From positions 12,483 to 76,482 of IMG/VR virus record IMGVR_UViG_3300020027_000005: a DNA stretch of 64,000 nucleotides; one strand, given 5' to 3'. The DNA comes from a virus. This document shows positions 492 through 60,122 of the stretch, piece after piece. The notes below the pieces were generated by a model. That model saw nothing but the letters and a program-made list of their open reading frames with translations. It did not search any database and was not told the DNA's origin. Each line of letters opens with the position of its first letter. The stretch's first letter is position 1. The position numbers and the translations under genes were made by a program.

Positions 492-1013
492 ATGAACGAA
501 TTCGAACTGCACGGCCGGGTTGTCGCACAGGCCTTCTTCCTCGAGCTCGAGAAGATTGCGATGGCCGATCCGATGGACATCGTTCACGGTCTTCGAGCAA
601 ACCAGGCTCTCCGGAGTGCAGCCTCTCCGAGTCTTGTGCAGAAGCTCAAGCCGGGAACGGGGAGCTTCTTCGGGGCCGTGAAGGACAAGGTCCGTCTTCA
701 CTTGAAGGGACGGAATGTTCGGAAGAGTGCGATCAAGGACCTCGATAGCGCTTCCAAGTACACACCGGGGGCGGATGACATCGAGGACAACGCCAACCTC
801 GCCAGGGCTGCTCGAGGTCGGGAAGCCGAACATGAACTTCACGGGAAGCCGGGTGAGTCGAGCTTCTTCGGCGGAAAGAAGAAGAAGGAGCCGGTGAGGG
901 GTCACCGGGCCAGGCTTCGGGACCTCGCCTTCGGTGCGGGAATCGGTGGAGCAGGCGTGATCGGCACCAGCATGTACCTGAAAGGTGGACAGGCTGAGCC
1001 CGGCTACGAGTAA
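492..1013 (+). CDS. Hypothetical virion protein with ELEKIA motif and C-terminal glycine zipper
   Basis: GGAG RBS; AFFLELEKIA near the N-terminus; LAFGAGIGGAGVIG near the C-terminus; TAATG coupling to the next gene. Confidence 0.7.
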   Translation: MNEFELHGRVVAQAFFLELEKIAMADPMDIVHGLRANQALRSAASPSLVQKLKPGTGSFFGAVKDKVRLHLKGRNVRKSAIKDLDSASKYTPGADDIEDNANLARAARGREAEHELHGKPGESSFFGGKKKKEPVRGHRARLRDLAFGAGIGGAGVIGTSMYLKGGQAEPGYE

Positions 1014-1732
1014 TGGAAAAGGCCGAAAAGAAGACGAGGGCGGCCCAAGAGCTCGAACTCTGGCGCGACTGGAAGGCCAACCCTTCTGACGCCACGCTCG
1101 AGCCCTTGATGGCGTCCATGCAAAACGTTGTTCAACAGCGGGTGAACCAGTTTCGTGGAGCTCCCGTTCCACCTGCCGCTGTTCAGGGTTTTGCAAACGT
1201 CCAGCTCAAAAAGGCCTTCCATACCTACAGCCCGGACAAGGGAGCTTCTCTCGCGACCCATGCGAACTGGTACTTGAAGAAGGTCCAGACCTTCGTCATC
1301 AAGCACCAGAACATCGGGAAGATTCCAGACCAGCGAGCGAACAACATCGCCGAGTACCGAGCTGCGAAAGAGGAACTCCGAGAGACGCTGGGGATGGAGC
1401 CAGACGCTCTCTCCTTGTCGGAACATCTCGGCTGGAGTCAGCGAGAGGTCGAGCGGATGGAGGCAGAGCAGAGAAAGGACCTCATCGCTTCCAAGAACCC
1501 AGAAGCTGACCAGCTCGCCGAAACCTACTCGAACCGAGAGAGGGAAGTTCTACGGTACATCCACTACGACCTGACCCCGGATGAGCGCCTGGTCTTCGAG
1601 TACACTCTGGGGTTGTACGGAAAGCCGCAGATCTCGGCCACCGAGATTTCGAGAAGGATGAGTATCTCTCTTCCGAAGGTCAGCCGAATTCGAGCGAAGA
1701 TCGACAAGAAGCTTCGTGCCCGGGGTGTGTAG
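1013..1732 (+). CDS. Phage sigma70-family sigma factor (group-3/FliA-SigF-like, regions 2-3-4)
   Basis: Region 2 KAFHTYSPDKGASLATHANWYL; region 3 EELRETLGMEPDALSLSEHLGWSQREV; region 4 HTH LTPDERLVFEYTLGL...SATEISRRMSISLPKVSRIRAKIDKKLR. Confidence 0.85.
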   Translation: MEKAEKKTRAAQELELWRDWKANPSDATLEPLMASMQNVVQQRVNQFRGAPVPPAAVQGFANVQLKKAFHTYSPDKGASLATHANWYLKKVQTFVIKHQNIGKIPDQRANNIAEYRAAKEELRETLGMEPDALSLSEHLGWSQREVERMEAEQRKDLIASKNPEADQLAETYSNREREVLRYIHYDLTPDERLVFEYTLGLYGKPQISATEISRRMSISLPKVSRIRAKIDKKLRARGV

Positions 1733-1938
1733 TGGCTTTGTCCGCAGAAACCATTACCAACCTCGAGATCGCAAAGATTGCGATTCAGGAGTACCTGGAC
1801 AACCGTGTGGATGAAATCGACGACCTCGTCTTCAACCTGAAGGCATACGGGGTCCCGCTCGACTCTCTGTCGGTCAGCACTACGGAAGCTGCGACGGACG
1901 AGGCCATGGCCACCATCTCCAGCCTTCTGGCATTCTGA
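1732..1938 (+). CDS. Hypothetical protein
   Basis: TAGTG overlap with the sigma gene; fills the operon. Confidence 0.6.
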   Translation: MALSAETITNLEIAKIAIQEYLDNRVDEIDDLVFNLKAYGVPLDSLSVSTTEAATDEAMATISSLLAF

Positions 1939-1944
1939 GGAACC

Positions 1945-2535
1945 ATGGAGTCCGTTACTCTCGTCTTTCTCGATTCCATGATCGGAAACCAGGTTGTCCC
2001 CAACCTGTTGATCACGGTCTATGAAGAAGACGGGATTAACCTCGTTACCTATGGACGAACTGGGCCCGACGGTACGGTAGAGCTGCTCGCGCCTGTGGGT
2101 AACTACGTCGTCCGAACCTTCAAGATCGGAGTGACTCCGACAGAAGAGACCTTGACCGTCGAAATCGGGGGAGGTTCTTTCACCTTCTACGTCTCGACCA
2201 TCCTGGTGGCCCCTCCTCCCTCTCCGAGGGTTTGTCGGCTCTTCTCGAACTTCGTGTCGTTGAACGGACGGCCTTGGGTTCAGTTCAGACTTCAGGTCTC
2301 CAACATGTTCGACCCGAAGGCGGCAGAGGGTCTCGCGGTCGTCGAGAACACGTTGACCCTCGAGACTGACGCCGCAGGCCATGTGGAGTTCGACGTCGTT
2401 CGAGGGGCCAGAATCCGGGTCACGTTCATCACCACCCCCTTCAGCCGGGAGATCGTGGTTCCGGATAAGGCGGTCGAGAACCTTATGACTGCGCTGGGGG
2501 AGTCTACGGACAACTTCCGTGTTGTTCGGAGATAG
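1945..2535 (+). CDS. Virion protein with two transthyretin/carboxypeptidase-regulatory-like beta-sandwich domains
   Basis: GRTGPDGTVELLAPVGNYVV and TDAAGHVEFDVVRGA motifs; the C-terminal half is paralogous to the N-terminus of 6151..6825. Confidence 0.6.
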   Translation: MESVTLVFLDSMIGNQVVPNLLITVYEEDGINLVTYGRTGPDGTVELLAPVGNYVVRTFKIGVTPTEETLTVEIGGGSFTFYVSTILVAPPPSPRVCRLFSNFVSLNGRPWVQFRLQVSNMFDPKAAEGLAVVENTLTLETDAAGHVEFDVVRGARIRVTFITTPFSREIVVPDKAVENLMTALGESTDNFRVVRR

Positions 2536-2543
2536 GAGCCTGC

Positions 2544-23654: not shown

Positions 23655-23993
23655 TTGTACAACTGCCTCATCGACGCCAAGACCGGAGAAGTCATCGTCT
23701 GTACTCGTGGAAGAGTCTTCCTCCAGGCAGGGCAGTCGCTCGTTCAGTCTCCAGAACCTCTCGAGCCGCCGTCGGACTACATCTACGACTTCCACACCCA
23801 GATGATCTTGGAGAAGACGGACGAGCGGAAGCAGCAGGAACGCGCGCTTTCGAAAGCCATCTCTGAGGGTGCCGAAGCCGAACAAGTCGTTCGTCTGGAG
23901 GACCTGAAGGCGAAGGTCGAGGCCATCAAAGATGGGAAGACGAAAGACGCCATCAAGTCTCTGGCCGCCTACCTGGGCGTAAAGCTGGACTGA
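23655..23993 (+). CDS. Hypothetical protein, possible tail fibre chaperone
   Basis: AGGAG RBS before TTG at 23655; last gene of the structural operon. Confidence 0.55.
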   Translation: MYNCLIDAKTGEVIVCTRGRVFLQAGQSLVQSPEPLEPPSDYIYDFHTQMILEKTDERKQQERALSKAISEGAEAEQVVRLEDLKAKVEAIKDGKTKDAIKSLAAYLGVKLD

Positions 23994-24035
23994 AGGCGAA
24001 AAAAGGAAGGGGGATGGATTTCTCCACCCCCCTTC
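23992..24035 (-). terminator. Intrinsic terminator of the minus-strand replication operon
   Basis: Minus strand reads GAAGGGGGGTGGA-GAAA-TCCATCCCCCTTC then CTTTTTTCGCCTTC. Confidence 0.8.
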
Positions 24036-27915: not shown

Positions 27916-28507
27916 TGGCAGCCTTGAAGTCGATGAACTGTTGTTCGGTGAGGGCTACTGCCGGTGGGTGCAGAGGAAGTGTTCTCGGGTAGAGACCCAG
28001 TAGGGTATCGACCCACGGATGAAGACCCTCGATGCACCTGGTTCCTGACTCGTCGAACCACTCTTTGAGAACGACGACGAACCTGTAGGTCGGCTCTCCG
28101 GGAAGCCCGCGAAGCTCGACGTGGAGAATGGGCTGTTCTCCTACCGCCATGGCTCCGTTCACCAGTTTCGACCAGATTTTTGGAGTGACGGTAAAGTGCC
28201 CTCTACTTGTTTGCTTTGCTTCCACTCGCCACACTCCGAATGTCCTTCCGTCTCCATCCAGCCCTAAGGCACCAGAAGCTGGGGTAGCTCTGGCACCGAC
28301 CAAGGCGTTGGCGCGCTTTTCTTGAGCACGCCAACTACTCTTGTTCCGAAGATGGATGGGTTGAGGCCGACGGAAGCGACTGCAATCTTCCTTATGCCGG
28401 ATGTTGTCCGACACCTGGACTTTGTCTCGTCCAATGCTCTTGCCGATGAAGAGGATTCCGCCTTCACCGCATTCTCGACAAGTCACTTTTCGTGGGCCTT
28501 TCTCCAC
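27890..28507 (-). CDS. PD-(D/E)XK nuclease (Holliday junction resolvase-like) with N-terminal Zn finger
   Basis: CREC..H...C; QEKRA..ATPASGA..DGD...VEAKQT. Confidence 0.7.
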   Translation of the reverse strand: MEKGPRKVTCRECGEGGILFIGKSIGRDKVQVSDNIRHKEDCSRFRRPQPIHLRNKSSWRAQEKRANALVGARATPASGALGLDGDGRTFGVWRVEAKQTSRGHFTVTPKIWSKLVNGAMAVGEQPILHVELRGLPGEPTYRFVVVLKEWFDESGTRCIEGLHPWVDTLLGLYPRTLPLHPPAVALTEQQFIDFKAANESSGSDL

Positions 28508-32835: not shown

Positions 32836-32880
32836 AGGTAGGCGGAAGGGTGAACTTCCCTTTCCGCCTACCTTATGCGC
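32836..32880 (-). promoter_or_regulatory. GCGCATAAG motif followed by a 12-bp-stem leader hairpin
   Basis: + strand cttatgc at 32872-32878; inverted repeat 32836-32847/32862-32873. Confidence 0.6.
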
Positions 32881-34147: not shown

Positions 34148-35146
34148 AAGGCGAAGTTGAATTGGGCTTTGGGCCTCGTCGATCATATCCTGAACTTCTT
34201 TTTCGTTCAGGGAATCTGGCTGCGTATTGATGGTCCGAGACTTGTACTGGCAGATCAGGGCCTTCCCTGCTCGGCCTAGAGCCTCCGCAATCTGTAGCGC
34301 AGCACAGCGCCCAAAACTGTCCGGGAATCCTTTTCCAGCTTGATGGTCGAGCATCACGTAGAAGGGACCTGCCAATCTTTCCAGCAGGGTTCTCTGCGCC
34401 CGTGAAAGGGATGAACCTTGAAGCGCGACCGTGTGAGGGAATCCGAGCTGTCTCAACCAGAGACACGCTTTGTACCCTTCAACCAGAATCAGAGGCGAAC
34501 AACCGGCCTCATCCTTAAAGAACCGTTCCGGGTACACGGTGTGAAACCCGTAGAGGTGTCGACGGTTGTCCGGGACGTACTTCTCAACGACCCCGTAGAA
34601 CTCTCCGCCTTTCCGCGCGTCGTACACCTTGTAGCGAGGACTCATCCAGTTCTCGATTGCCCTCCCGTTGATTGCCGCCAGCCGGCCCGCGAAATCGCGA
34701 ACCGGAAAAGTGATCCTCTGGCGTTGCGCGTCGTACCCTACTTCATGGGCTCGGAGGATTTCTTCTGAAAAGCCCTTTCGTAGAAGTTGAGCAGGCGGCC
34801 CCCCGTAAACTCCCAGGATGTATTCGGGAAGGAATACGGGCTCCTTGGCCAGCTCGGCCCTTATGCGCAGAAAGTCTGGAACCGCGAGCTTCGGCTTGAC
34901 GTTCTGAACCGTCCTGTCGATTTGTGTTGGCGACAGGCCGAGTTTTCGTAGCAGCGTGACGAAGGACCCGCTCTCACCGCAGTCTCGGTGAAAACAGATC
35001 CAGGCTCCGGATTCCAGACTGATGCTGAAAGTTCGGTCGTCCCCCGAGTGGAAGGGACAGACGGCCTTCAGGTTGCTCTCTCCCATGGGCCGTACTTCCG
35101 AGAAGTACAGGTCCATGATTTCTTGAACCCGGACCTCGAGGCTCAC
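34145..35146 (-). CDS. DNA primase (CHC2 zinc finger + TOPRIM)
   Basis: CPFH...CFHRDCG; RITFPVRD; RYK; HLYG; ILVEGY. Confidence 0.85.
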   Translation of the reverse strand: MSLEVRVQEIMDLYFSEVRPMGESNLKAVCPFHSGDDRTFSISLESGAWICFHRDCGESGSFVTLLRKLGLSPTQIDRTVQNVKPKLAVPDFLRIRAELAKEPVFLPEYILGVYGGPPAQLLRKGFSEEILRAHEVGYDAQRQRITFPVRDFAGRLAAINGRAIENWMSPRYKVYDARKGGEFYGVVEKYVPDNRRHLYGFHTVYPERFFKDEAGCSPLILVEGYKACLWLRQLGFPHTVALQGSSLSRAQRTLLERLAGPFYVMLDHQAGKGFPDSFGRCAALQIAEALGRAGKALICQYKSRTINTQPDSLNEKEVQDMIDEAQSPIQLRL

Positions 35147-37203: not shown

Positions 37204-37273
37204 CCCCCCGCTCCGCAACTAACGGAGCGGGGGGATGCGGGGTTTGAGGACAAGGGGTTCGGCTAGCTTATGC
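37204..37273 (-). promoter_or_regulatory. GCATAAG motif (37267-37273) and downstream 12-bp GC hairpin upstream of the helicase
   Basis: ccccccgctccg / cggagcgggggg at 37204-37234. Confidence 0.55.
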
Positions 37274-41050: not shown

Positions 41051-41063
41051 CTACCTTATGCGC
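41051..41063 (-). promoter_or_regulatory. Candidate phage promoter GCGCATAAGGTAG
   Basis: 13-bp identity with 32868-32880; sits at the divergence point heading the minus-strand operon. Confidence 0.65.
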
Positions 41064-45049: not shown

Positions 45050-45127
45050 CGATTCTCCAGAAGCCGACATTGTTGGCTCCAACATTCTTATGCGCGATAG
45101 ACTTGGGCAGCTTTCGTAGGATGGACG

Positions 45128-48100
45128 ATGTCGAACTTGAGCCCGGAAATGCAGTTCGAGTCGCTGAAGTCCAGCCTCTCCGGGACCCTGAAGGGAATGT
45201 TTCCCATCGAGACGAGGGGTGGGAATTCCATCGTCCTCGAAGAAGTGGAGTTCAAGGACGAGAAGGGCAGCGGAGACCTTCGGGAGCAGCAGAAAGCTCT
45301 CCGTGAGGCCAAGAGCTGGTCCATTCCGGTCTACGGAACCTTCAGCACGAAGAACAAGAACGGAACGGAGACCGATCGGAAGCGCGTTCTGATGATGCAC
45401 CTGCCTCGTACGACTGATCGTTTCGGGTACATCGTCGATGGGAACGAGTACCAGATCCTCAACCAGTTTCGACTGAAGTCTGGTGTGTACCACCGGATGG
45501 CTCCAGACGGAGATGCGCTCGCAGAGTTCAATCTCGCGAACTCGGACCAGTTCGCAAACGGAAAGAGCTTCAAGCTCAGATTGGTTCCGAAGACTGCGGT
45601 CTTCTACGTCGACCACCGCAATTCGAGTGTCCCGCTCTACCCCCTTCTCAAGTCTGTCGGAGTGACCGACGAAGATCTCGAGAAGGCGTGGGGAAAGGAA
45701 ATCCTCGAACGGAACCAGGCGAAGGGAGCAGAAGCTCGGTCGTTCGGAGCCCTCCGTCGGGCTGTGGGTGCAGAGCTCCCCGGCGTAGATGGCTCCGAAC
45801 TTTTCGGGAAGCTGCTGGCCAAGACGAAACTCCTTCCGGAGACCACGGAGAAGACTCTCGGAAAGGCCTACGCGTCCGTGACTCCGGAGTTGTTGGCCCA
45901 GAGCACGAAGCAACTCCTGGAACTCTCTCGTGGAGCTCGGGCCGAGGACGATAAGACCTCTCTCGAATACCAGGGGATGTACTCGGCGAACGACCTGCTC
46001 TCTGGCCATCTCCAGAGGAAGGCAGGTCTGATCAAAAGGAAGATTCAGACGAACCTGGAGAAGAAGAAGGGTGTTCGGTTGATCGTGCCGACGGACACGT
46101 TTGACCAGGCTCTTCGGTCCTTCTTCTCCACTTCCCTGGTCTCGCAGCCCGAGCAGACGAATCCTCTCGAGATGCTCTCTGGAGCACTCAAGACGACGAT
46201 CATGGGGGAGCAGGGAGGCATCAAATCCAGCTTCGCGATCTCCGAGAATGCGAAGCTCGTGAACCCTTCTCACCTGGGATTTCTGGACCCGATCCACACG
46301 CCAGAAGGTGAAAAGACAGGCGTGTCTCTTGCGCTGCCTCTCGGGGCTGGAAAGCGAGGGAACGAGATCGTCTCCACCTTCTGGAATGCGAAGACCAAGA
46401 AGCGGCAGGAGATCTCTGCTGGAGAGGCACTCCACGCCACCGTGGCTTTCCCGGACCAGTACGTTCAGAAGGGTTCGGGGATGTCTCCGGTCGCTCCGAA
46501 GGTGAAGGCGACGAAGGACGGGAACATCGTCTACGTCAGCCATCGGGAGGTCGACTACGTCATCCCGAGTCCGCGAGCAGTATTCGGAGTCTCCTCGAAC
46601 CTGATCCCGTTCTTGCAGAACAACCAGGGCAACCGAGCGATGACAGCAGCTCGGCAGCAGGAACAAGCAGTTCCTCTTCTCTACCGTGAGGAGCCTCTGG
46701 TCCAGGTGAAGACCGACGGAAAGGCGACCTTCGAGGAGATCCTCGGAGAGAGCTCTGCTCGGAACTCCCCTGTGGATGGGGAGATTCTTCGTGTTGAGAG
46801 AGACGCCATCATCATCAAGGACAGCAAGGGCGAGAAGCACGAGATTCAGTTCTACAAGGACTTCGCGCTCAAAGGGAACACCCTCTACGACTCCGACGTG
46901 AAGGTGAAGGCCGGAGACAAGGTGAAGAAGGGAGACCTTCTCGCCGACACGACGTTCACGAAGAATGGGAAGCTCGCTCTCGGTACCAATCTTCGAACTG
47001 CCTACATGGCGTTCAACGGGTACAACTTCGAGGATGGCATCGTTATTTCTGAGGACGCTGCCAAAAAGCTCACAAGCCTACATGTCCATCAGAAAGACAT
47101 CCCGTTCGACACGGACACTGTGCTCGACAAGAAGAAGTTCCTCTCGCAGTACCAGTATGGGTTCGGGAAGGAGCAGCTCGAAAATGTGGGCGAGGACGGA
47201 GTCATCAAGGTCGGCTCCCGCGTGAAGGAAGGAGATCCTCTCCTCCTGGCTCTGAGGAAGCCGAACGAGTCGCAGCTCCGCAAGCAGATCATGGCCTTCC
47301 GGCGAGGGCGTCCCGACAAGTTCCGGGACGGCTCACTGGCTTGGGACCACGAGGCTCCCGGCATCGTCACGGACGTGGTGAAGCGGGGAGACCAGGTCGT
47401 GGTCTACGTGAAGACCGAGGAGCCTGCGCAGGTAGGTGACAAGCTTGTAGGGCGGCACGGGAACAAGGGAATCATCACGCGAGTGGTTCCGCAAGCAGAG
47501 ATGCCCTACTCCACGGACGCGAAGGGCGAGAAGCAGCACGTCGATATCCTCATGAACCCCCTTGGGGTCCCCGGGCGTATCAACCTCGGCCAGATCCTGG
47601 AGACGGCTGCTGGGAAGATCGCCACAAAGACCGGGAAGACCTACGAAGTCAAGAACTTCGAACACGGGAAGGACTACCTCACCGACATCAAGGCAGACCT
47701 GAAGAAGAACGGGCTCTCGGATAAGGAAGCCCTCTTCGATCCGACGACCGGAAAGCACTTCGAACAGGAAGTGATGACCGGGAATCAGTACATCTTGAAG
47801 CTGAAGCACATGGCTACGAAGAAGATCTCCGCCCGCTCGGGCTCGGGCGGTGAGGGATCCTTCTACGACGTGAACCATGCCCCGAGTTCGGGAGCCCCTC
47901 ACGGTGGACAGGCCATGGACCCGCTCGGGCTCTACGCCCTGTTGGCTCACGGAGCTCGCGAGAATATCTCGGAGATGTACACCTACAAGTCGGACAAGAA
48001 CGACGCCTTCTGGGACGCTATCCGGGAAGGGGCACCGATTCCGCCCCCGAAGACGCCGTTCGTGTACGACAAGTTTCTCAAGTATATGAACGCGCTTCGC

Positions 48101-51100
48101 GTGGATGTGAAGAAGGAAGGGAACTCTCTTCAGCTGATGCCGTTCACCGAACAGCAGGTTCTGGAGATGAGCTCTGGCGAATTGAAGGAACCCTCCCTCG
48201 TGGTTCGAGGAAAGGACCTGAAGCCTCTGCCCGGAGGTTTGTTCGACGAGAAGCTCACCGGCGGAAAGGAGGGAACCCGGTGGACGCACTTCAAGCTCGC
48301 CGAGCCTATGCCGAACCCGATGTTCGAAGAGGCGATCAAGAAGTTGACTGGACTCTCTGACAACCAGTTCAGGAGCCATATCCGGGGCGATGTCGAGGTC
48401 AACGGTAAGAAGGGAGGTGAGGCGGTCGAAGAGCTTCTCAAGCGCATCAACGTGAAGAAGCTGCGAGAGGACCTCGAGTCGAAGATCGGAAAGGCCAAAG
48501 GTGCTGGTCGAGACAAGCTCCACCAGCAGTTGAGAATCGTGAAAGCCTTGGACGAGGCCAAGCTCTCCCCCACGGTCTACATGATGCGGAGTGTTCCGAT
48601 CCTGCCTCCGATCTTCCGACCGGTTTCGGCGAAGCCGGATGGTTCACTCTCGTCTGACGATCTCAACGGCCTGTACAAGGACATCGGGGCCGTGAATGAG
48701 TCGCTGACTCTTCTGAAGTCGTCCGACATTCCGCAGTCGATCGTGGCGCCCACTCGGATGGAGCTCTACGATGGGCTCCGGGCCATGACCGGACTCGGTG
48801 GCTCCCTGACTCGGGAGTACCGCGGAATCCTGGATATCATCTCTGGGAAAACACGCAAAGGCGAGTCGGCCGGTGAAGGATCCAGCAAGGGTGGGTTCTT
48901 CCAAAAGTCCGTGATGAAGCGCCGTCAGGACTTCTCGGCTCGATCCATCATTACTCCCGAGCCCCGTATGGGAATCGACGAGATCGGTCTCCCGCAGGAG
49001 ATCGCCTGGACGATGTACCAGCCCTTCATCGAGAAGGAGCTCATTCGTCAGGGCTACAAGCCGCCGGACGCTATCGATGAGGTTCGGAAGCGGACTCTGG
49101 TTGCGGAGAAGGCGCTCTTCAGAGCAGTCGAAGACAGACCCGTTCTTCTGAAGCGTGACCCGGTTCTTCACAAGTTCAACGTGATGGCGTTCAAGCCGAG
49201 ACTCGTGAAGGGAAAGGCAATCGAAATCCACCCCCTCGTCACCGGTGGGTTCAACGCCGACTTCGACGGCGACACCATGTCGGTCTTCCTTCCGGTCACC
49301 TCTCCAGCAGTGAAGGAGGCCCAGAACCTCTACCCGTCGAACAACCTCTTCAGCCCGACCACGGGCGCGGTCATGTACACGCCCGGTCACGAGGCCCTGC
49401 TCGGTACCTACCTGCTCTCCCTTCCCGGGAAGAAGACTGGAAAACGCTTCAAGAACACCGAAGACGCCCAGTCTGCTCTTCGGAAGGGAGAGCTCAAAAA
49501 GACTGACATCGTTCGAATCGGTGGGCACGAGACCACTCTCGGCCGACTGGAGATCGAGGCGAAGCTTCCAGCCTGGCTCCAGGAGACAGGGAAGAAGCCG
49601 GTTTCTGAGATGCGGATCTACGACAACAAGACCACCAAGGGCTTGTTGATGCAGGTCGCGAAGCGGGACCATCTCAAGTACGGGGAGATTGCGAACCACC
49701 TGAAGGACATCGGAAACGAGAACTCGACGAGAACCGGATTCTCGATCGGACTCTCGGACTTCGATGTTGTGAATAAGGTGGGTCGAGACAAGATCATCGC
49801 GGCTGCAGAAAAGCAGCAGGTGAAGATCAACAGCTCGAAGCTCTCTGTGCAGAAGAAGGAGGAGAAGGTCGTCGAGGTTCTGACGAAGGCGAAGGACCAG
49901 CTCGAGGACCTCTACAACGCAGGCCTCAAGAAGGACCCGACGAACATCTACAAGATGATGATCTCTGGTTCTCGGGTGAGTCCCGGACAGTTGAAGCAGA
50001 TCGTCTCTTCGCCTGCCCTGGTCTCGGATTCGAAAAACAGAATGGTGCCATATATTATCCCCAGGTCGTACTCCGAGGGGATGGACATGGCGTCGTACTG
50101 GACGACCATGCACGGCGCTCGGAAAGGCGCACTTCAGAAGACCCAGGAGGTCTCGAAGCCTGGCGCACTCTCGAAGCTCCTCGTGAACTCGACCATCAAC
50201 CAGCTGGTGACCGAGGAGGACTGTCGAGCCGGGGACGGGATCACGATGTCGGTCGACAACCACGACGTGGCCGACCGCTACCTGGCTGCACCCGCTCGAT
50301 TCGGAGGAAAGCGAATTCGGGCTGGAGAGCTGATCACTCCGGAGCTCCTGGCCCAGGCCCGAAAGGCCCAGGTCAAGACGCTTACGGTTCGAAGCCCTCT
50401 TCGGTGCCAGGCAGAGCATGGTGTCTGCAGACACTGCATGGGTCTGACGGAGGGAGGGAAGAGCTACGACATCGGAACGAACATCGGGGTCATCGCCGCA
50501 CAGGCCGTAGGTGAGCCTAGCACCCAGCTCTCACTGTCGGCATTCCACACTGGAGGAACTGTTGGTTCCCGCGGTTCGCAAGCAGTTTCGACCTTCGGCC
50601 GGTTGAGCCAACTCCTCACCGTTCCTCGGAACATTCCGAACGAGGGGGCTCTGGCGCTTCATGCAGGGAAGGTCACGAGCATCGAGGATGCTCCGCAGGG
50701 CGGCCAGTACGTCTACATCAACAAGACCCAGCACTACGCCCCTGCGACACAGAAGCTCCAGATCAAAAAGTTCGACACCGTGAAGGCTGGGGATGAGCTC
50801 ACCGACGGAGTCACTGATCCGAAGAAGCTCCTGGCTCTTCGGGGTGTTCGGGACACGCAGGACTACCTGACGAGGTCGATGATGGAGGTGCTTTCGGAAG
50901 TAGCACCGGTGAAGCAGCGCAATGTGGAAGTCGTCGTTAGGTCGATGACTGATATCGCCACGGTCGAGGATCCGGGCGGGCATCCGGACTGGACCTCTGG
51001 AGATGTTCGGCCGGTTTCCATCATCGCTGCATGGAATGCGAAACATCGAGGCAAGGGGAAGCCGGTCAAGTACTCCACTCTCGTGAAGGGCGTGGACGTT

Positions 51101-51298
51101 CTTCCGAATGAGATGCAGGAGGATTGGATCGCTCGACTCAACTTCCAGAACCTCTCTCGAACTCTGACCCAGGCTTCTCGAGAGGGGTGGCACGCCAACA
51201 TCCACGGCTTCAATCCCATTCCGGCCGCAGCACAAGGTGCAGAGTTCAACAGAGCAGAGCGGAAACTCAAGCCGGGGGAACATAAAGGCCAGTACTGA
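45128..51298 (+). CDS. Single-chain fused beta-beta' DNA-directed RNA polymerase (bacterial type, 2056 aa)
   Basis: Beta motifs: GFLDPIHTPEG, IPFLQNNQGNRAM, GYNFEDGIVISE, GDKLVGRHGNKG, NPLGVPGRINLGQILE, YILKLKH. Beta' motifs: VPILPPIFRP, DFSARSII, NADFDGD (49253-49273), HGARKG, CQAEHGVCRHCMG, GEPSTQLSLSAFHTGG. Confidence 0.97.
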   Translation: MSNLSPEMQFESLKSSLSGTLKGMFPIETRGGNSIVLEEVEFKDEKGSGDLREQQKALREAKSWSIPVYGTFSTKNKNGTETDRKRVLMMHLPRTTDRFGYIVDGNEYQILNQFRLKSGVYHRMAPDGDALAEFNLANSDQFANGKSFKLRLVPKTAVFYVDHRNSSVPLYPLLKSVGVTDEDLEKAWGKEILERNQAKGAEARSFGALRRAVGAELPGVDGSELFGKLLAKTKLLPETTEKTLGKAYASVTPELLAQSTKQLLELSRGARAEDDKTSLEYQGMYSANDLLSGHLQRKAGLIKRKIQTNLEKKKGVRLIVPTDTFDQALRSFFSTSLVSQPEQTNPLEMLSGALKTTIMGEQGGIKSSFAISENAKLVNPSHLGFLDPIHTPEGEKTGVSLALPLGAGKRGNEIVSTFWNAKTKKRQEISAGEALHATVAFPDQYVQKGSGMSPVAPKVKATKDGNIVYVSHREVDYVIPSPRAVFGVSSNLIPFLQNNQGNRAMTAARQQEQAVPLLYREEPLVQVKTDGKATFEEILGESSARNSPVDGEILRVERDAIIIKDSKGEKHEIQFYKDFALKGNTLYDSDVKVKAGDKVKKGDLLADTTFTKNGKLALGTNLRTAYMAFNGYNFEDGIVISEDAAKKLTSLHVHQKDIPFDTDTVLDKKKFLSQYQYGFGKEQLENVGEDGVIKVGSRVKEGDPLLLALRKPNESQLRKQIMAFRRGRPDKFRDGSLAWDHEAPGIVTDVVKRGDQVVVYVKTEEPAQVGDKLVGRHGNKGIITRVVPQAEMPYSTDAKGEKQHVDILMNPLGVPGRINLGQILETAAGKIATKTGKTYEVKNFEHGKDYLTDIKADLKKNGLSDKEALFDPTTGKHFEQEVMTGNQYILKLKHMATKKISARSGSGGEGSFYDVNHAPSSGAPHGGQAMDPLGLYALLAHGARENISEMYTYKSDKNDAFWDAIREGAPIPPPKTPFVYDKFLKYMNALRVDVKKEGNSLQLMPFTEQQVLEMSSGELKEPSLVVRGKDLKPLPGGLFDEKLTGGKEGTRWTHFKLAEPMPNPMFEEAIKKLTGLSDNQFRSHIRGDVEVNGKKGGEAVEELLKRINVKKLREDLESKIGKAKGAGRDKLHQQLRIVKALDEAKLSPTVYMMRSVPILPPIFRPVSAKPDGSLSSDDLNGLYKDIGAVNESLTLLKSSDIPQSIVAPTRMELYDGLRAMTGLGGSLTREYRGILDIISGKTRKGESAGEGSSKGGFFQKSVMKRRQDFSARSIITPEPRMGIDEIGLPQEIAWTMYQPFIEKELIRQGYKPPDAIDEVRKRTLVAEKALFRAVEDRPVLLKRDPVLHKFNVMAFKPRLVKGKAIEIHPLVTGGFNADFDGDTMSVFLPVTSPAVKEAQNLYPSNNLFSPTTGAVMYTPGHEALLGTYLLSLPGKKTGKRFKNTEDAQSALRKGELKKTDIVRIGGHETTLGRLEIEAKLPAWLQETGKKPVSEMRIYDNKTTKGLLMQVAKRDHLKYGEIANHLKDIGNENSTRTGFSIGLSDFDVVNKVGRDKIIAAAEKQQVKINSSKLSVQKKEEKVVEVLTKAKDQLEDLYNAGLKKDPTNIYKMMISGSRVSPGQLKQIVSSPALVSDSKNRMVPYIIPRSYSEGMDMASYWTTMHGARKGALQKTQEVSKPGALSKLLVNSTINQLVTEEDCRAGDGITMSVDNHDVADRYLAAPARFGGKRIRAGELITPELLAQARKAQVKTLTVRSPLRCQAEHGVCRHCMGLTEGGKSYDIGTNIGVIAAQAVGEPSTQLSLSAFHTGGTVGSRGSQAVSTFGRLSQLLTVPRNIPNEGALALHAGKVTSIEDAPQGGQYVYINKTQHYAPATQKLQIKKFDTVKAGDELTDGVTDPKKLLALRGVRDTQDYLTRSMMEVLSEVAPVKQRNVEVVVRSMTDIATVEDPGGHPDWTSGDVRPVSIIAAWNAKHRGKGKPVKYSTLVKGVDVLPNEMQEDWIARLNFQNLSRTLTQASREGWHANIHGFNPIPAAAQGAEFNRAERKLKPGEHKGQY

Positions 51299-52257: not shown

Positions 52258-52512
52258 ATGGGTGATCTTCCTCCCTGGACCTGCCCTGCAATCGACCGCC
52301 TGGCCTTAGGGGTGCGGAAGCATTTTCCAGAGCCCGAAAAGACAGAGGCTCTGATTGCTCTCGAATCCCTTCGAGCGGCCCATGTTCAGCTCCGAAGAGC
52401 GGCGGGCGGGAAGCACCCCGAGATCGAGTCTGCTGAAATCCAGAGACTCAACAGGCGAATTCAGCGGCTGTTCTCTCGGTTGAAGAAGAAGCTCGAGGCT
52501 GAAGAGAGCTGA
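52258..52512 (+). CDS. Hypothetical protein
   Basis: PPWTCPAID...LESLRAAHVQLR; ends at a terminator hairpin. Confidence 0.55.
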   Translation: MGDLPPWTCPAIDRLALGVRKHFPEPEKTEALIALESLRAAHVQLRRAAGGKHPEIESAEIQRLNRRIQRLFSRLKKKLEAEES

Positions 52513-52545
52513 AGGCGAAGAGAAGGCGCGGGCCCTTCTCTTTTT
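52511..52545. terminator. Hairpin between convergent genes, preceded by GAAGGCGAA
   Basis: aagagaagg/ccttctctt stem followed by a T run. Confidence 0.65.
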
Positions 52546-54427: not shown

Positions 54428-54429
54428 TC

Positions 54430-54469
54430 GAAGGCGAAGAAGCTGGGCCGGGAAACCGGCCCGTGCTTC
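54430..54469. terminator. GAAA-loop hairpin between convergent genes, preceded by GAAGGCGAA
   Basis: gggccgg-gaaa-ccggccc with outer gaagc/gcttc. Confidence 0.6.
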
Positions 54470-54824: not shown

Positions 54825-54982
54825 GTCACCAACCTTCAGAGTTTGGTCTCCAGCAGCTCGACTTTGAGCTGTGGAATCGTAGGGGATTTGAGGAGGGGCC
54901 TACATTATGTAGGTAGTCTGCTGTCTTTGGCGGGTGGGATCAGGATGGAAGTGCTCTCTTCCATCCTAGTCCTTATTCGTCC

Positions 54983-55267: not shown

Positions 55268-55351
55268 TCGGACCTCTAGGAGGCCTCCGGAACTTCTCAT
55301 TCCGGAGGAGGTTTCAGAAATCAGAAGGGACAAATCCTCTTCTTGAGTTTC

Positions 55352-55630
55352 TTATGCCTGGTCCTCGGTCACCTTTTCGAGACGAGCCTTGTGGGTCTGA
55401 ACAACTTTTCGGCTGTTGCTCTGACACTTCTGAAGAGGCATGGCCCCACAACGGGGACACTGGACTGCGAGTGCAAGTCTCCTCCTCTCTCGAAAGACCG
55501 AGGCCTCCTCTTCCGAGCGTTTCTCCATCTCCAAGTCCGTGCATCTCCCGCGGTGAACGTAGGTGCCGATCTGTTGAACGAAGTCGCTCTCCAGTGCCTT
55601 CTTTCCACAGGAGACGCAGGTCTTGCTCAC
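55352..55630 (-). CDS. Zinc-finger protein
   Basis: CVSC..H...C and CPRCGA....KC..H..R. Confidence 0.6.
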   Translation of the reverse strand: MSKTCVSCGKKALESDFVQQIGTYVHRGRCTDLEMEKRSEEEASVFRERRRLALAVQCPRCGAMPLQKCQSNSRKVVQTHKARLEKVTEDQA

Positions 55631-56379: not shown

Positions 56380-56412
56380 GTATCTGAAAAATTGACTTTC
56401 TCGGGTCCAAGA

Positions 56413-56442
56413 TGGCCGGGCGCTTTCGAAAGCGCCCGGCCA
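56413..56442. terminator. Perfect 30-bp palindrome, terminator or processing hairpin
   Basis: tggccgggcgctttc|gaaagcgcccggcca. Confidence 0.6.
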
Positions 56443-56446
56443 CTTT

Positions 56447-56647: not shown

Positions 56648-56654
56648 CTTCCCC

Positions 56655-56909
56655 CTAGTCCATCAGGAAGTTGTGCTTCTCCTCGAACGCTGCGAGGAAC
56701 TCTGTCGCCCTCGCGATCTCTGCGAGGATGGTGCAGCGGTCTTGGTAGTGGCCAAGCAACTCGTTCGGGTTCGGGCAGACCGCGATGTGGTCTTCCAGAC
56801 TCGTTCGCATCTCTTCGAGCTCGGACAGTCTTGCGTAGACTGTCGCGCGCACGACGATGGCTTCTTTTCGGACTTCCTCGGGAAGACGAGGAAGCTGAAC
56901 TCTAGGCAT
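56655..56909 (-). CDS. Hypothetical protein
   Basis: AGGAGG RBS. Confidence 0.6.
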   Translation of the reverse strand: MPRVQLPRLPEEVRKEAIVVRATVYARLSELEEMRTSLEDHIAVCPNPNELLGHYQDRCTILAEIARATEFLAAFEEKHNFLMD

Positions 56910-56937
56910 ATCGGCCTCCTGTCTTCAGTGAAGTGTT

Positions 56938-57867: not shown

Positions 57868-57958
57868 ATGTCACTCCATGGGAAATGTCGACGAACTTCT
57901 TGTTCTTCGACACTTGTCTTATTCCCCAGGAAGATGGCCAATTCCACTCCTGGGAAGG

Positions 57959-58399
57959 CTATCTCTTCTTCTTGAAGACTCTTTTGGCCTCCACGTACCT
58001 GCCCGAAGGCGGAACTCCGGGAGAAATTCGAACGAGGACCGAGTGCGCAGTCCGTGTCGTCAGAAGTTCTCTGGAGAGTTTGATGAGGTACCACTGTGCG
58101 ATCTCTTCGCAGCTGAGGGCAGGCGCTGGTGTTTTGAAACCCGCCGAGTAGGTGCTGGGTGGCGTGCTCATGATGGCCTGGATCTCTTCGGCTTTGAGAA
58201 CGAATCCCGAATCATCGAGGGTCGGTCTATCTACTTCCACGCACCAGGAGAACATTTCCATGTAGGTTGAGCCGCACTGCGTGTTCTGCAGTTTCATGGC
58301 TCCCTCTACGTGGATCGAGAAAGTGTCGACCCACTCTACTTTCGTCCGAGCCCTCGCACTTGTACTCTTGGGAGTGCGAGGGGTCTTTTCTGCTTTCAT
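57959..58399 (-). CDS. Hypothetical protein with weak resemblance to QueD/PTPS T-fold proteins
   Basis: LDDSGFVL...SCEEIA; lacks the HGH motif. Confidence 0.5.
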   Translation of the reverse strand: MKAEKTPRTPKSTSARARTKVEWVDTFSIHVEGAMKLQNTQCGSTYMEMFSWCVEVDRPTLDDSGFVLKAEEIQAIMSTPPSTYSAGFKTPAPALSCEEIAQWYLIKLSRELLTTRTAHSVLVRISPGVPPSGRYVEAKRVFKKKR

Positions 58400-58680
58400 G
58401 GTTTTCCTCGACGCTCCCACCGCCATTTTGTTTCGTTGACTGCGGAGATGAGCACTCCGAGAAAGATGCTTTCGAAGTCTCGCTCTTCGAACTTCCGTGC
58501 GTCGAAGACGAGGTCGGTCACCGTATGGACTCGTTCACGGAGTTCGTCTTCGGTGAGCTCCGCTACGGGCTGTGCCAGAAGCTCCTTCTGGAAGAGCGGG
58601 AAAGTCTCGTTCTTGAGCCTCCCCACGTCCACGTTGTCCGGCCCGATGGGCTTGCTCGGGTCGAAGCCCTTTACTGACAC
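58396..58680 (-). CDS. Hypothetical protein
   Basis: GGAG RBS before GTG at 58680; ATGA coupling downstream. Confidence 0.5.
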   Translation of the reverse strand: MSVKGFDPSKPIGPDNVDVGRLKNETFPLFQKELLAQPVAELTEDELRERVHTVTDLVFDARKFEERDFESIFLGVLISAVNETKWRWERRGKP

Positions 58681-58934
58681 GCGTGCTCCGCGATGTGAAC
58701 GGAGCCCTCCATGAATCCTCCGGAGCTCTTCTCCTGGAAGATGTAGTTCTCGGGAGTTTCCCCTTCCCGCATCGGGCGGGTGACGTACCAGAAGCTCGTC
58801 TCCTTCCAGGTGACGTCGAACAGCTTCTGGTCGCACGGCAAGCTCACGTTCATCGTCCCGCCGAAGCTCTTGGCCAGCTCGTTCTCCGAGCAGCCCACGA
58901 GGATGATGGGGAACAGGAACAGCAGAAACTTCAC
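58671..58934 (-). CDS. Phage lipoprotein
   Basis: Lipobox ILVG-C; FGG...KL..VTWK...WY.TRPM pattern. Confidence 0.75.
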   Translation of the reverse strand: MKFLLFLFPIILVGCSENELAKSFGGTMNVSLPCDQKLFDVTWKETSFWYVTRPMREGETPENYIFQEKSSGGFMEGSVHIAEHACQ

Positions 58935-59137
58935 GGCTTCTCCTCTTCGAGAATCAACGCCTTGAGGGCGGAACTCGCTTTATTGATCTCTTCGAAGTCG
59001 TCTTTGATAAAACCGATGACCGCCACCATGTTGATAATGGTGCCGTTTGCCTGCAGCAGTTCGAGCTTGACCGCCAGAAGCTCCTTTTCGAGTTTTTCTA
59101 CTTTCTCGAGAAGCTCGATTTCACGGATGGTTGCCAT
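58931..59137 (-). CDS. Hypothetical coiled-coil protein
   Basis: Coupled ORF. Confidence 0.5.
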   Translation of the reverse strand: MATIREIELLEKVEKLEKELLAVKLELLQANGTIINMVAVIGFIKDDFEEINKASSALKALILEEEKP

Positions 59138-59351
59138 CTTTGGGGTCCGTGAAAGTGAGTGTGAACGGGTTGTCGATGGCGATCAGGAAGTCGGGGAGCT
59201 CGGGAGGTTCCTCCAGTTCTTCTTCTGTATGCGCCTCTTCCTCCCAGAATCTTTCCAGAGCTTCGATGCACTCACGTCCTTCTTTTTCGCGTTCGACGGG
59301 ACAGATGAACCAGTGATCGTCATCATCGCTCAGTAGACGGTATCGCTGCAT
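59121..59351 (-). CDS. Small acidic hypothetical protein
   Basis: GGAGG RBS; RYRLLSDDDDHWFICP...LTFTDP. Confidence 0.65.
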   Translation of the reverse strand: MQRYRLLSDDDDHWFICPVEREKEGRECIEALERFWEEEAHTEEELEEPPELPDFLIAIDNPFTLTFTDPKDGNHP

Positions 59352-59402
59352 CTCGTCCTCCAGGGTGTCACCTCCCTTTATTCGGGAGGTGACACTTGTT
59401 CG

Positions 59403-60032
59403 CTACAGCCTGGCTGCAGCTGCCCGAGCGAAGGCCAGGGAGGCGTTCCCGTCAGCCGATGCCCAGGCCCGCTCGGAAAGCTCGAGGCTCTTCCCGGAGT
59501 CGATATGGGTGATCTTCACCACCCCCTCCAGGAAGACGGGAAGTCCCGTCTCCGTGATCTCGTAGACGAAGTCCCGTGCCGCCTCGAACAGCGCCGTAGT
59601 CTTCTGGCCTCCTCCGTAGCGCCGGATCATCGTGAAGACCCGCTCGGTCGGCATGTCCGGCTCGATGGGCCAGATCTGCATCTTCAGGATCCGTTCCTGG
59701 CTCGTCCGGGGGATGTACTCCGCGAGCTGGTTCATGAAGAAGTGAGCGAGTTGTTCGCCGCTCATTCCCATGACCTGGCGTTCGGAGATCCGCTCCACCG
59801 CGTGGCGGAGCTTGACCTCCTCGGCCCGCTCGATGGTCTTGATCATCGCGATGTCCGTCCTTTCGGCATCCTCCACGAAGTTGGAATGGTCCAGCTTGGG
59901 GGACAGGATGCTGAAGCACCAACCGAAGTTGGTAGTGGTCCGCTGCCCGCAGATCACGCTGTAGAAGTGTCTCGACCCCTCCACAGCCCGGATGTCCATG
60001 AGGTACTCGTCCTTGAACAACGTCTCGCTCAT
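59403..60032 (-). CDS. Hypothetical protein
   Basis: AGGAG RBS; downstream of GCATAAG (60098-60104) and a hairpin. Confidence 0.65.
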   Translation of the reverse strand: MSETLFKDEYLMDIRAVEGSRHFYSVICGQRTTTNFGWCFSILSPKLDHSNFVEDAERTDIAMIKTIERAEEVKLRHAVERISERQVMGMSGEQLAHFFMNQLAEYIPRTSQERILKMQIWPIEPDMPTERVFTMIRRYGGGQKTTALFEAARDFVYEITETGLPVFLEGVVKITHIDSGKSLELSERAWASADGNASLAFARAAAARL

Positions 60033-60122
60033 TTCTCTCTCTCTCCTGTTTACTCCACGGCTTTTTCTTGAAGCCGTGAATTGTCTTCGCTAGGGTTCTT
60101 ATGCTTCTTAGTTGGGGACTTT

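What the first reader, a model, noticed from the sequence alone, without database searches (positions are those of the whole stretch)
1013..60104. Candidate self-contained phage transcription system: single-chain RNAP, dedicated sigma, promoter motif and terminator signature
Seen: a fused beta-beta' RNAP (45128-51298), a group-3-like sigma (1013-1732), a G(C/A)ATAAG motif heading minus-strand units, and a shared hairpin plus TTCGCCTTC where three of them end. No alpha or omega gene is visible in the window. Known: phiKZ/AR9 RNAPs are split multi-subunit enzymes, while YonO and crAss-type RNAPs are single-chain but far more divergent. As I recall, a metagenomic Caudovirales lineage with cellular-like beta/beta' was reported by Weinheimer and Aylward (2020), so the enzyme class may not be new. 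I know of no description of its cognate sigma, promoter and terminator set. Inference: a minimal two-protein holoenzyme reads GCATAAG promoters.
Basis: partly seen in the sequence, partly recalled or inferred. Interest (0 to 1): 0.92.

Follow-up and report, generated by a model that had tools for sequence, protein, structure and literature searches.

The report
Phage RNA polymerase, sigma and promoters
An uncultured soil phage encodes a one-chain bacterial-type RNA polymerase and its own sigma factor, and marks its replication and accessory genes with a promoter word (GCATAAG) that is the local spelling of a TATAAG signal shared by all relatives checked, so the phage probably runs part of its transcription itself; no experiment has shown this.

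Summary
All four observations hold. ORF 45128-51298 is a fused beta-beta' RNA polymerase with an intact NADFDGD centre. ORF 1013-1732 is a sigma-70-family factor with domains 2, 3 and 4. G(C/A)ATAAG occurs 11 times against 3.8 expected. Ten copies are on the minus strand, and nine of those are intergenic, ahead of replication and accessory gene units. The 9-mer TTCGCCTTC follows hairpins at three of four convergent gene junctions.

The motif is the local form of a lineage-wide box, (TGn)TATAAG. It was the top or near-top upstream word in three complete uncultured relatives, in Salmonella phage Arash and in Vibrio phage D69. These genomes span 45-62% GC. The final G is specific, and a conserved T-G lies where a sigma-70-type start site would fall. 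All five also carry the sigma orthologue, which is a virion protein in Arash.

No alpha or omega gene was detectable in four of these genomes (D69 was not searched) or in the window's contig.

That the phage sigma and phage polymerase read the motif is a comparative inference (about 0.55). The terminator signature is real locally but only weakly supported in relatives. The polymerase lineage is published (mReC, 2020). I found no paper on its sigma and promoter set. This scan has already noted the TATAAG promoter in at least 36 other genomes.

The parts
45128..51298 (+). Single-chain beta-beta' RNA polymerase, 2056 aa. Beta is about residues 1-1000 and beta' about 1030-2056. Clamp helices lie at about 1180-1212 and NADFDGD at 1376-1382.
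   Evidence: Pfam and NCBIfam domain order; invariant catalytic motif; PDB beta and beta' matches; more than 120 fused homologues of about 2055 aa
1013..1732 (+). Sigma-70-family factor (domains 2, 3, 4), 239 aa. It overlaps both neighbouring genes by one base, inside the plus-strand block that holds the baseplate genes. It is the orthologue of Arash virion protein Gp10.
   Evidence: family; orthologues in G003, G004, G005, Arash, D69; PMC10585845 read (virion proteome; gene overlaps, baseplate genes)
41055..41061 (-). GCATAAG, promoter-like -10 box heading the unit 40592-41008, helicase, UDG and others. Predicted start near 41048.
   Evidence: positional orthologue in G004 at 114288(-)
45087..45093 (-). 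GCATAAG heading the small gene 44885-45070, which diverges from the RNAP gene.
   Evidence: The same divergent position holds CTTAT[AG] upstream of the RNAP gene in most of 22 relatives listed and in G004 at 120470(-).
37267..37273 (-). GCATAAG heading DnaB-like helicase, VWA protein, DnaG-like primase.
32872..32878 (-). GCATAAG heading 31712-32821, DNA polymerase A, RecA.
28391..28397 (-). GCATAAG in a 356-nt gap upstream of 27890-28150 and a PD-(D/E)XK nuclease gene.
54972..54978 (-). GAATAAG heading 54468-54824.
55351..55357 (-). GCATAAG heading 54983-55267.
57918..57924 (-). GAATAAG just after a hairpin, heading 56938-57867 and downstream genes.
60098..60104 (-). GCATAAG heading 59403-60032 and downstream small genes.
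34860..34866 (-). GCATAAG inside the DnaG-like primase gene: an internal promoter or a chance copy.
23992..24035 (-). Hairpin (13-bp stem), T-run, then TTCGCCTTC, at the convergent junction of the tail block and the minus block. This is the best intrinsic-terminator look-alike.
   Evidence: -35.2 kcal/mol, z -5.6
52511..52542 (-). Hairpin followed at once by TTCGCCTTC. On the plus strand the same hairpin is followed by a T-run, so it may work in both directions.
   Evidence: z -1.8, weak
54430..54469 (-). Hairpin, six bases, then TTCGCCTTC, at a convergent junction.
   Evidence: z -3.9

Best explanation
The window is about a third of a roughly 170-kb soil phage of the RNAP-encoding Caudovirales lineage (mReC). 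It encodes a streamlined bacterial-type RNA polymerase core as one chain and one conserved sigma-70-family factor.

G(C/A)ATAAG is this phage's spelling of the lineage's promoter, (TGn)TATAAG. I read it as a -10 box. The ATAAG part (positions -11 to -7) is fixed, the -12 base varies (T, C or A), and the last base is G where bacteria have T. Transcription would start about 7 nt downstream, at a conserved pyrimidine-purine step.

The box heads the replication, recombination and small accessory gene units, all on one strand. Most likely the phage sigma binds the clamp helices of the phage polymerase and reads this box. If the enzyme travels in the virion, as the Arash proteome suggests, these are the first genes read after injection.

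The RNAP gene, the sigma gene and the virion genes lie on the other strand without the box, so another promoter class must serve them.

Shown here: the parts, their co-occurrence and the conservation of the motif. Inferred: who reads it, the start site, packaging in this phage, and independence from host alpha.
For: (1) De novo word enrichment in upstream regions gives the same box everywhere. G004 gives TGGTATAAGATC. The other four are: G003 gives GGTATAAG (p 3e-24) plus GGCATAAG; G005 gives GGTATAAG (p 8e-13); Arash gives TGGTATAAG (p 1e-27); D69 gives TGTTATAAG (p 2e-18).
(2) The final G is specific. Intergenic TATAAG against TATAAT is 26:1 in G004, 22:0 in G003 and 46:4 in Arash. All 26 TATAAG in G004 are intergenic.
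(3) A T-G is conserved at positions 12-13 from the start of the motif in every genome. That is the -1/+1 expected for a 6-nt discriminator. No -35 element is strongly conserved.
(4) Position is conserved. The reverse-complement box sits upstream of the RNAP gene in most of 22 relatives, including the closest IMG/VR relative (58% identity), which spells it like the window. Window sites 41055 and 45087 match G004 sites in syntenic gaps.
(5) The sigma orthologue is present in all three complete IMG/VR genomes, in Arash and in D69. Five sigma homologues list a longest contig of the same length as an RNAP homologue, suggesting shared contigs. A second clear sigma exists only in Arash and D69, so this is the only sigma common to all motif-bearing genomes.
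(6) Sigma against RNAP residues 1030-1420 scores ipSAE 0.74, best control 0.00. That mark was reached by 58 of 80 solved complexes and 2 of 110 mismatched pairs. The runs share at least 43% of contacts and the partner's pLDDT is at least 71. The interface joins RNAP 1180-1212 with sigma 26-34, 52-67 and 94-101, the canonical sigma-2 to clamp-helix contact. This is a textbook pair, so the pass may reflect likeness to solved holoenzymes.
(7) In Arash the RNAP subunits and Gp10 are abundant in purified virions (PMC10585845).
(8) Sigma-70 consensus promoters are not enriched in the window: 4 against 3.4 expected and 2 against 3.8.
Against: There are no transcript data. The only public run that holds the stretch is DNA. 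The box is one or two bases from an ordinary extended -10 promoter, so some reading by a host holoenzyme cannot be excluded. The window's version lacks the upstream TG seen in relatives. The sigma keeps a well-conserved region 4, yet no conserved -35 was found. Nine sites are few. Phage sigmas known from experiments (T4 gp55, SPO1 gp28) work on host core, not on a phage core. About 56% of this genome is unseen and could hold another sigma or RNAP subunits. Detection in virions in Arash may reflect abundance and not packaging, as its authors note.
Confidence: 0.55

Rival explanations
1. The phage sigma redirects the host core RNA polymerase to the ATAAG promoters, as T4 gp55 and SPO1 gp28 do. 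The phage polymerase serves another gene class or uses another factor.
For: Every experimentally studied phage sigma acts on host core (established knowledge). The sigma keeps the generic sigma-2 surface, which binds any bacterial clamp helices.
Against: The sigma and the fused RNAP are strictly linked in all genomes checked, across hosts as different as Salmonella, Vibrio and unknown high-GC soil hosts. Both are found together in Arash virions.
Confidence: 0.15
2. The phage polymerase reads the ATAAG box with a different, unrecognised specificity factor, and the Gp10-like sigma serves the other (virion and RNAP) gene class.
For: The sigma gene sits in the virion block and lacks the box itself in the window. 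The other class must be read by something. phiKZ-type phage RNAPs use non-sigma factors (PMC7824862).
Against: The box has sigma-70 -10 architecture: A at -11, a 5-base fixed core, and the spacing to T-G. No other sigma is shared by all genomes.
Confidence: 0.12
3. The host housekeeping holoenzyme reads the box as a -35-less, extended -10-type promoter. Sharing across phages reflects common ancestry of regulatory DNA, not a private polymerase.
For: TGnTATAAG differs from TGnTATAAT by one base, and extended -10 promoters need no -35 (established knowledge).
Against: T at -7 is among the most conserved promoter bases, yet these phages select G over T by 22:0 to 46:4. The box is the same in phages of hosts with very different GC content. 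The window's version lacks TG and has C or A at -12, which should be very weak for a host sigma-70.
Confidence: 0.08
4. The word is an RNA-level signal, a processing or stability site in polycistronic transcripts, and not a DNA promoter.
For: Several copies are followed by stable 5' hairpins.
Against: It resembles a -10 box. It sits in divergent gaps where no upstream transcript on that strand is expected (41055, 45087). It has fixed spacing to a pyrimidine-purine step.
Confidence: 0.03

Closest known systems
mReC, the multisubunit-RNAP-encoding Caudovirales (Weinheimer & Aylward 2020, PMC7481178)
   Same: Beta and beta' homologues close enough to cellular ones to be found by standard HMMs. 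They occur on large tailed-phage contigs with portal and baseplate genes, from many habitats.
   Different: In the searches I ran on that paper, the words sigma and promoter do not occur, and fusion is mentioned only for crAssphage. Here the two subunits are one 2056-aa chain, as in more than 120 homologue clusters. I built no tree to place this RNAP inside their clade.
Salmonella phage Arash (OQ632216; PMC10585845): Gp206 + Gp216 RNAP, sigma Gp10, second sigma gp196
   Same: Orthologous RNAP (about 32% identity), sigma (E 5e-39 with the profile), portal next to the RNAP gene, and a helicase. The TATAAG box lies mostly on the strand of the non-structural genes: 35 of 40 GTATAAG copies are on the minus strand.
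   Different: Arash splits beta' after about residue 1470, giving two chains, and has a second RpoS-like sigma. Its box is TGGTATAAG. The paper reports the proteins in virions but does not mention promoters.
Virion and non-virion multisubunit RNAPs of phiKZ and AR9 jumbo phages
   Same: Phage-encoded relatives of cellular RNAP with short private promoters. One enzyme is packaged to make infection independent of host RNAP.
   Different: Those enzymes are split into four or five very divergent subunits, and no sigma factor is found in these phages (PMC7824862). Here the core is fused, close to cellular ones, and paired with a true sigma-70-family protein.
Phage sigma factors that retarget host core (T4 gp55 with gp33, reading TATAAATA; SPO1 gp28)
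   Same: A phage sigma reads a short -10-only box that differs from the host consensus.
   Different: Those phages encode no polymerase core. T4 gp55 lacks regions 3 and 4, whereas this sigma has domains 2, 3 and 4.
Bacterial extended -10 promoters (TGnTATAAT) and sigma-28 promoters (TAAA-N15-GCCGATAA)
   Same: Relatives have TGn directly before the hexamer and no clear -35. The ATAA core and the domain layout recall FliA/WhiG-type sigmas.
   Different: The last base is G, not T. The window lacks TG. No TAAA-type -35 lies at fixed spacing. The sigma scores 31.8 bits against a FliA/WhiG cut-off of 189.6.

Membership tests
Bacterial-type multisubunit RNAP core (beta + beta') | Both double-psi beta-barrel subunits with the beta' NADFDGD Mg site and the conserved beta domains | tested here: met
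   Pfam Rpb2_3, Rpb2_6 and Rpb1_1 to Rpb1_5. rpoB and rpoC HMMs at E 1e-112 to 1e-149, below the equivalog cut-offs. NADFDGD invariant. PDB beta' at E 1e-104.
Bacterial-type multisubunit RNAP core (beta + beta') | Alpha dimer and omega subunits encoded alongside | tested here: not met
   No PF01000, PF01193 or PF01192 match in the contig, in three complete relatives or in Arash. Controls ring in 14 of 14. Very divergent analogues, or use of host alpha, cannot be excluded.
mReC lineage (Weinheimer & Aylward 2020) | Cellular-like beta and beta' on a contig with Caudovirales hallmark genes | tested here: met
   Portal (Arash gp204, E 1e-91). Baseplate PHROGs. IMG/VR virus record.
mReC lineage (Weinheimer & Aylward 2020) | Branches inside the distinct deep phage clade of the RNAP tree | not tested
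   No tree was built. The nearest homologues are all phage contigs or metagenomic sequences, and cellular RNAPs reach only about 28-30% identity.
Sigma-70 family | Domains sigma-2, sigma-3 and sigma-4 in order | tested here: met
   The profile matches RpoS, SigA and RpoD over regions 2-4 at E 4e-12. Foldseek gives probability 1.0 to full-length sigma chains.
Sigma-70 family | Binds the beta' clamp helices through region 2.2 | tested here: inconclusive
   The model places sigma 52-67 on RNAP 1180-1212, ipSAE 0.74 against 0.00 for controls. This is a prediction only, for a pair that resembles solved complexes.
Group 3 sigma, FliA/WhiG or SigB/F/G subfamilies | Scores above the curated subfamily cut-off | tested here: not met
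   TIGR02479 scores 31.8 bits (cut-off 189.6) and TIGR02980 scores 34.8 (cut-off 234). The best hit is RpoD-type, 40.8 bits.
Sigma-70-type -10 promoter element | Hexamer with A at -11, oriented with and upstream of genes, more frequent than chance | tested here: met
Sigma-70-type -10 promoter element | T at -7 | tested here: not met
   G at -7 throughout the lineage
Sigma-70-type -10 promoter element | Transcripts start 6-8 nt downstream | not testable with these tools
   No RNA run holds the stretch. Only a conserved T-G at the expected place was seen.
Intrinsic (hairpin plus U-tract) terminators | GC-rich hairpin followed directly by a U-run at gene ends | tested here: inconclusive
   Site 24000 fits: 13-bp stem plus six T. 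Sites 52515 and 54435 have T-poor tails. Arash and D69 terminators are canonical. The shared tail TT[AC]GC is enriched only in the contig (p 0.002), G004 (p 2e-4) and G003 (p 0.016).
Virion-packaged phage RNAP (N4, phiKZ, crAss type strategy) | Polymerase present in particles and injected | not testable with these tools
   The only support is the Arash virion proteome and the late-type position of the RNAP and sigma genes beside the portal and tail genes.

The most novel reading that the evidence does not exclude
A complete sigma-dependent bacterial-type holoenzyme is packed into the virion and injected. It consists of a single-chain beta-beta' core without alpha or omega, plus one sigma. It runs host-independent early transcription from -35-less promoters whose -10 box ends in G. 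This would be the smallest known sigma-dependent cellular-type transcription machine.
Probability: 0.3. Interest if true: 0.85.

Novelty: new variant of a known kind. Interest (0 to 1): 0.68.

Why it matters
Phage-encoded polymerases studied so far are either single-subunit (T7, N4) or very divergent, sigma-less multisubunit enzymes (phiKZ, AR9, crAss). Phage sigmas studied so far borrow the host core. This lineage seems to combine a near-cellular core, reduced to one chain, with a true sigma and a private -10 box.

If confirmed, it would be a two-protein model for sigma-dependent initiation. It would test whether alpha and omega are dispensable when beta and beta' are fused. It would also show how the -7 pocket of sigma can be retuned from T to G. 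Cultured members (Arash, Vibrio phages D69, D181 and D148) make this testable now. The motif also gives a simple annotation rule for transcription units in hundreds of uncultured large phages.

Tried and rejected
I could therefore not fetch the closest relatives (65-73% RNAP identity, Logan contigs up to 190 kb), and the comparison rests on relatives at 30-58% identity.

No RNA holder is listed for the stretch. One soil DNA run holds it.

PHROGs gave almost nothing for 20 virion-block proteins. The protein atlas gave nothing usable for the gene upstream of the sigma.

A fixed -35 element was sought and not found in the nine window sites. Relatives show only a weak A-rich position near -19.

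The closest IMG/VR relative, G001 (57 kb, mostly virion genes), has too few gaps for word statistics. It shows two intergenic cgCATAAG copies.

I considered TAGGAT before the RNAP start as a host-type -10 giving a leaderless mRNA. I dropped this because AGGA there sits at Shine-Dalgarno distance, and relatives have ordinary GGAG sites there.

I considered GAGCTAC as a second motif. It is the D-arm of tRNA genes.

Aligning the six sigmas to look for residues that change with the -12 base gave too few data points to say anything.

Four literature searches (TATAAG with phage promoter, mReC, phage Arash, phage-encoded sigma with multisubunit RNAP) found no description of the sigma and promoter set.

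Full report
**What the window is.** The window is bases 12483-76482 of a 76,482-bp IMG/VR virus record judged about 44% complete. The one public run that holds it is a soil metagenome, DNA only. GC is about 58%. My gene calls give four blocks:
- a plus-strand block from upstream of the window to 23993, with baseplate proteins, a helicase and large unknown proteins;
- a minus-strand block 24095-41008 with RecA, DNA polymerase A, DnaB-like helicase, DnaG-like primase, UDG, a ResIII helicase and a PD-(D/E)XK nuclease;
- a plus-strand block 41094-52512 with the portal, the RNAP and a GH6 hydrolase;
- a minus-strand block of small genes 52545-62402, followed by plus-strand tRNA genes.

**The polymerase.** ORF 45128-51298 carries beta domains followed by beta' domains in one frame. 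The NADFDGD centre is invariant in 27 homologues. Matches to solved beta' chains begin near residue 1070-1094 of the protein and residue 150-250 of the chains. Matches to beta begin near residue 250-318. Both N-terminal parts are therefore short or divergent. The fused form is not rare: more than 120 clusters of about 2055 aa at 41% identity or more occur on contigs up to 199 kb, and some carry intein or homing-endonuclease domains. The lineage matches the RNAP-encoding Caudovirales of Weinheimer & Aylward (PMC7481178). My term search of that paper found no occurrence of sigma or promoter, and fusion is mentioned only for crAssphage. Cultured relatives at about 30% identity are Vibrio phages D69, D181 and D148 and Salmonella phage Arash. 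In these, beta is fused to the front of beta' and the rest of beta' is a separate gene.

**The sigma.** ORF 1013-1732 is weak in Pfam. A profile of 25 homologues matches RpoS, SigA and RpoD over regions 2 to 4 at E about 4e-12. An AF2 model (pLDDT 81) matches full-length sigma chains. It reaches no NCBIfam subfamily cut-off. RpoD-type, SigB/F/G, RpoH and FliA/WhiG models all score 30-40 bits. It is therefore a sigma-70-family protein with a group-3-like layout but no assignable group. The model of the sigma with RNAP residues 1030-1420 scores ipSAE 0.74 against 0.00 for the best of three controls. That mark was reached by 58 of 80 solved complexes and 2 of 110 mismatched pairs. The runs share at least 43% of contacts, and the partner's pLDDT is at least 71. 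The interface is RNAP 1180-1212 with sigma 26-34, 52-67 and 94-101, the classical sigma-2 to clamp-helix contact. Because sigma-core complexes are solved many times, this shows that the canonical surface is retained, not that the two bind.

**Co-occurrence.** The sigma orthologue is present once in each of three complete IMG/VR genomes that carry the fused RNAP (G003 193 kb, G004 178.5 kb, G005 181 kb). It is also present in Arash and D69. Five sigma homologues list a longest contig of the same length as an RNAP homologue (190,291; 80,108; 129,542; 188,461; 95,761 bp), which suggests shared contigs. The Arash orthologue is Gp10. The Arash paper found Gp10 in purified virions with 100% coverage, and the RNAP large subunit was the most-detected protein (PMC10585845). 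A second, RpoS-like sigma (Arash gp196) exists only in Arash and D69. No alpha or omega homologue is detectable in the contig, the three complete genomes or Arash, while the same searches ring in 14 of 14 control genomes.

**The motif in the window.** GMATAAG has 11 hits against 3.8 expected. Ten are on the minus strand. Nine of those lie in intergenic DNA upstream of minus-strand genes, 17 to about 240 nt from the start codon. One lies inside the primase gene. No copy, even with one mismatch, precedes a plus-strand gene anywhere in the 76-kb contig; the only plus-strand intergenic match is a one-mismatch GCATAAC at 40888, 170 bases ahead of 41058-42179. No -35-like element is conserved.

**The motif in relatives.** I called genes in six genomes and asked, without prior pattern, which words are over-represented in upstream gaps.
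- G004: TGGTATAAGATC. All 26 TATAAG in the genome are intergenic.
- G003: GGTATAAG, p 3e-24, plus GGCATAAG, the window's spelling.
- G005: GGTATAAG, p 8e-13.
- Arash: TGGTATAAG, p 1e-27.
- D69: TGTTATAAG, p 2e-18.

These genomes range from 45 to 62% GC, and two infect known, different hosts. The last base is specific: intergenic TATAAG against TATAAT is 26:1, 22:0 and 46:4 in G004, G003 and Arash. The window's contig holds no TATAA pentamer at all on either strand. In all genomes a T-G is conserved at positions 12-13 from the start of the motif. That is exactly the -1/+1 expected for a sigma-70-type -10 box with a 6-nt discriminator. Seven of the nine window sites have pyrimidine-purine there. 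The varying base is -12 (T, C or A), and ATAAG (-11 to -7) is fixed.

**Conserved position.** The reverse-complement box lies upstream of the RNAP gene, heading a small divergent gene, in most of 22 relatives. This includes the closest IMG/VR relative, which spells it as the window does. Window sites 41055 and 45087 correspond to G004 sites 114288 and 120470 in syntenic gaps. In Arash, 35 of 40 GTATAAG copies lie on the minus strand. The RNAP genes, the portal and the structural-protein genes annotated in the fetched part of the genome are plus-strand. In G004 the 43-kb block that holds the sigma gene and orthologues of the window's baseplate genes has no copy.

**Reading.** The box is a real, lineage-specific promoter-type signal for the non-structural genes. 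It has the anatomy of a sigma-70 -10 element but departs from the bacterial consensus at one of its most conserved bases, and it keeps this form across hosts. The only sigma shared by all genomes that carry it is the Gp10-type sigma, and that sigma always travels with the phage polymerase. Generic sigma-70 consensus sites are not enriched in the window.

The genes for that machinery lie with the virion genes and lack the box. Together with the Arash proteome, this suggests that the enzyme is made late, packed and injected to read these units first. That part is inference. The other gene class needs another promoter. In Arash and D69 a TAAAATA(T) word, sometimes with a TTGAAA-like -35, precedes plus-strand genes. 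In the window a TTGTCA-16-GAAAAT site precedes 41094. I did not pursue this.

**Terminators.** The exact 9-mer TTCGCCTTC occurs five times, only on the minus strand. Three copies follow hairpins at three of the four convergent junctions. The site at 24000 looks like a classical intrinsic terminator. The other two have T-poor tails, and one hairpin is weak. On the plus strand the same 9-mer (GAAGGCGAA) lies just after the stop codons of the plus-strand genes and before the hairpin, so its strand of action is open.

In the high-GC relatives, hairpin tails often read YTCTTAGC. The word TT[AC]GC is enriched after hairpins in the contig (5 of 45, p 0.002), G004 (p 2e-4) and G003 (p 0.016), but not in G005, Arash or D69. 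In Arash and D69 the terminators are ordinary hairpin plus T-run. The local repeat is real. A polymerase-specific termination signature is not established.

**Novelty.** The enzyme lineage is published, and the virion presence of the RNAP and sigma is published for Arash. I found no paper that describes the cognate sigma, the promoter or the fused single-chain form. Within this scan the same TATAAG promoter has already been noted in at least 36 other genomes and the fused RNAP in several. I reached the motif result before reading those notes, and I re-tested the Arash and D69 claim myself. New here are the C/A spelling at -12 without the TG, the positional orthology of two sites, and the local terminator repeat.

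Noticed in passing
window 51308-52222 (+): A glycoside hydrolase family 6 protein (Pfam E 4e-44) is encoded 9 nt after the RNAP gene. This is an unusual phage gene. It may be a depolymerase or a host-range clue; GH6 is common in Actinomycetota.
   Followed up: no
window 62558-63216 (+): tRNA cluster. ARAGORN finds Val, Phe and Met. Rfam adds two weaker tRNA matches at 62719-62783 and 62965-63054, which may have unusual anticodon regions.
   Followed up: partly
whole 76-kb contig: The pentamer TATAA is absent from both strands of the contig (no TATAAN hexamer). Relatives use TATAAG as their promoter core.
   Followed up: partly
Arash and D69 genomes (loci L105-L124); L099 9808-9835: A second over-represented upstream word is TAAAATA(TA): D69 has it in 12 regions (p 4e-13) and Arash in 8. 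In Arash it forms TTGAAA-16-TAAAAT just upstream of the portal-RNAP genes. It is a candidate promoter of the virion and RNAP gene class. G003 shows TGGTACTA instead.
   Followed up: partly
window 34090-34144: Two copies of ACTTAGGATCA (plus strand; ATCCTAAG on the minus strand) in the 55-nt gap between the primase gene and 32890-34089. They resemble the ATAAG box with C at the -10 position.
   Followed up: no
window 28151-28506: A 356-nt gap holds one GCATAAG copy 240 nt from the next start codon, plus a GTAGCTC word like a tRNA D-arm. No tRNA was called. There may be an unannotated small gene or RNA.
   Followed up: no
window 59352-59402 (-): A perfect 12-bp hairpin whose 7-nt loop is GAATAAA, between two small minus-strand genes.
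   Followed up: no
window 41044-41071 (+): A sigma-70-like site, TTGTCA-16-GAAAAT (9 of 12), lies 22 nt upstream of gene 41094-42179 and overlaps the divergent GCATAAG box.
   Followed up: no
homologues P0032, P0065, P0093, P0099, P0107, P0118: Some fused RNAPs are 2400-2840 aa and carry LAGLIDADG or intein domains (PF14528, PF03161, PF14890). D181 and D148 have a homing endonuclease inside the RNAP region.
   Followed up: no
window 1-491 and L002 11621-12482: About 900 nt around the window start have no confident gene call in my crude caller, although long open frames exist. The region just upstream of the sigma operon is therefore poorly annotated here.
   Followed up: no
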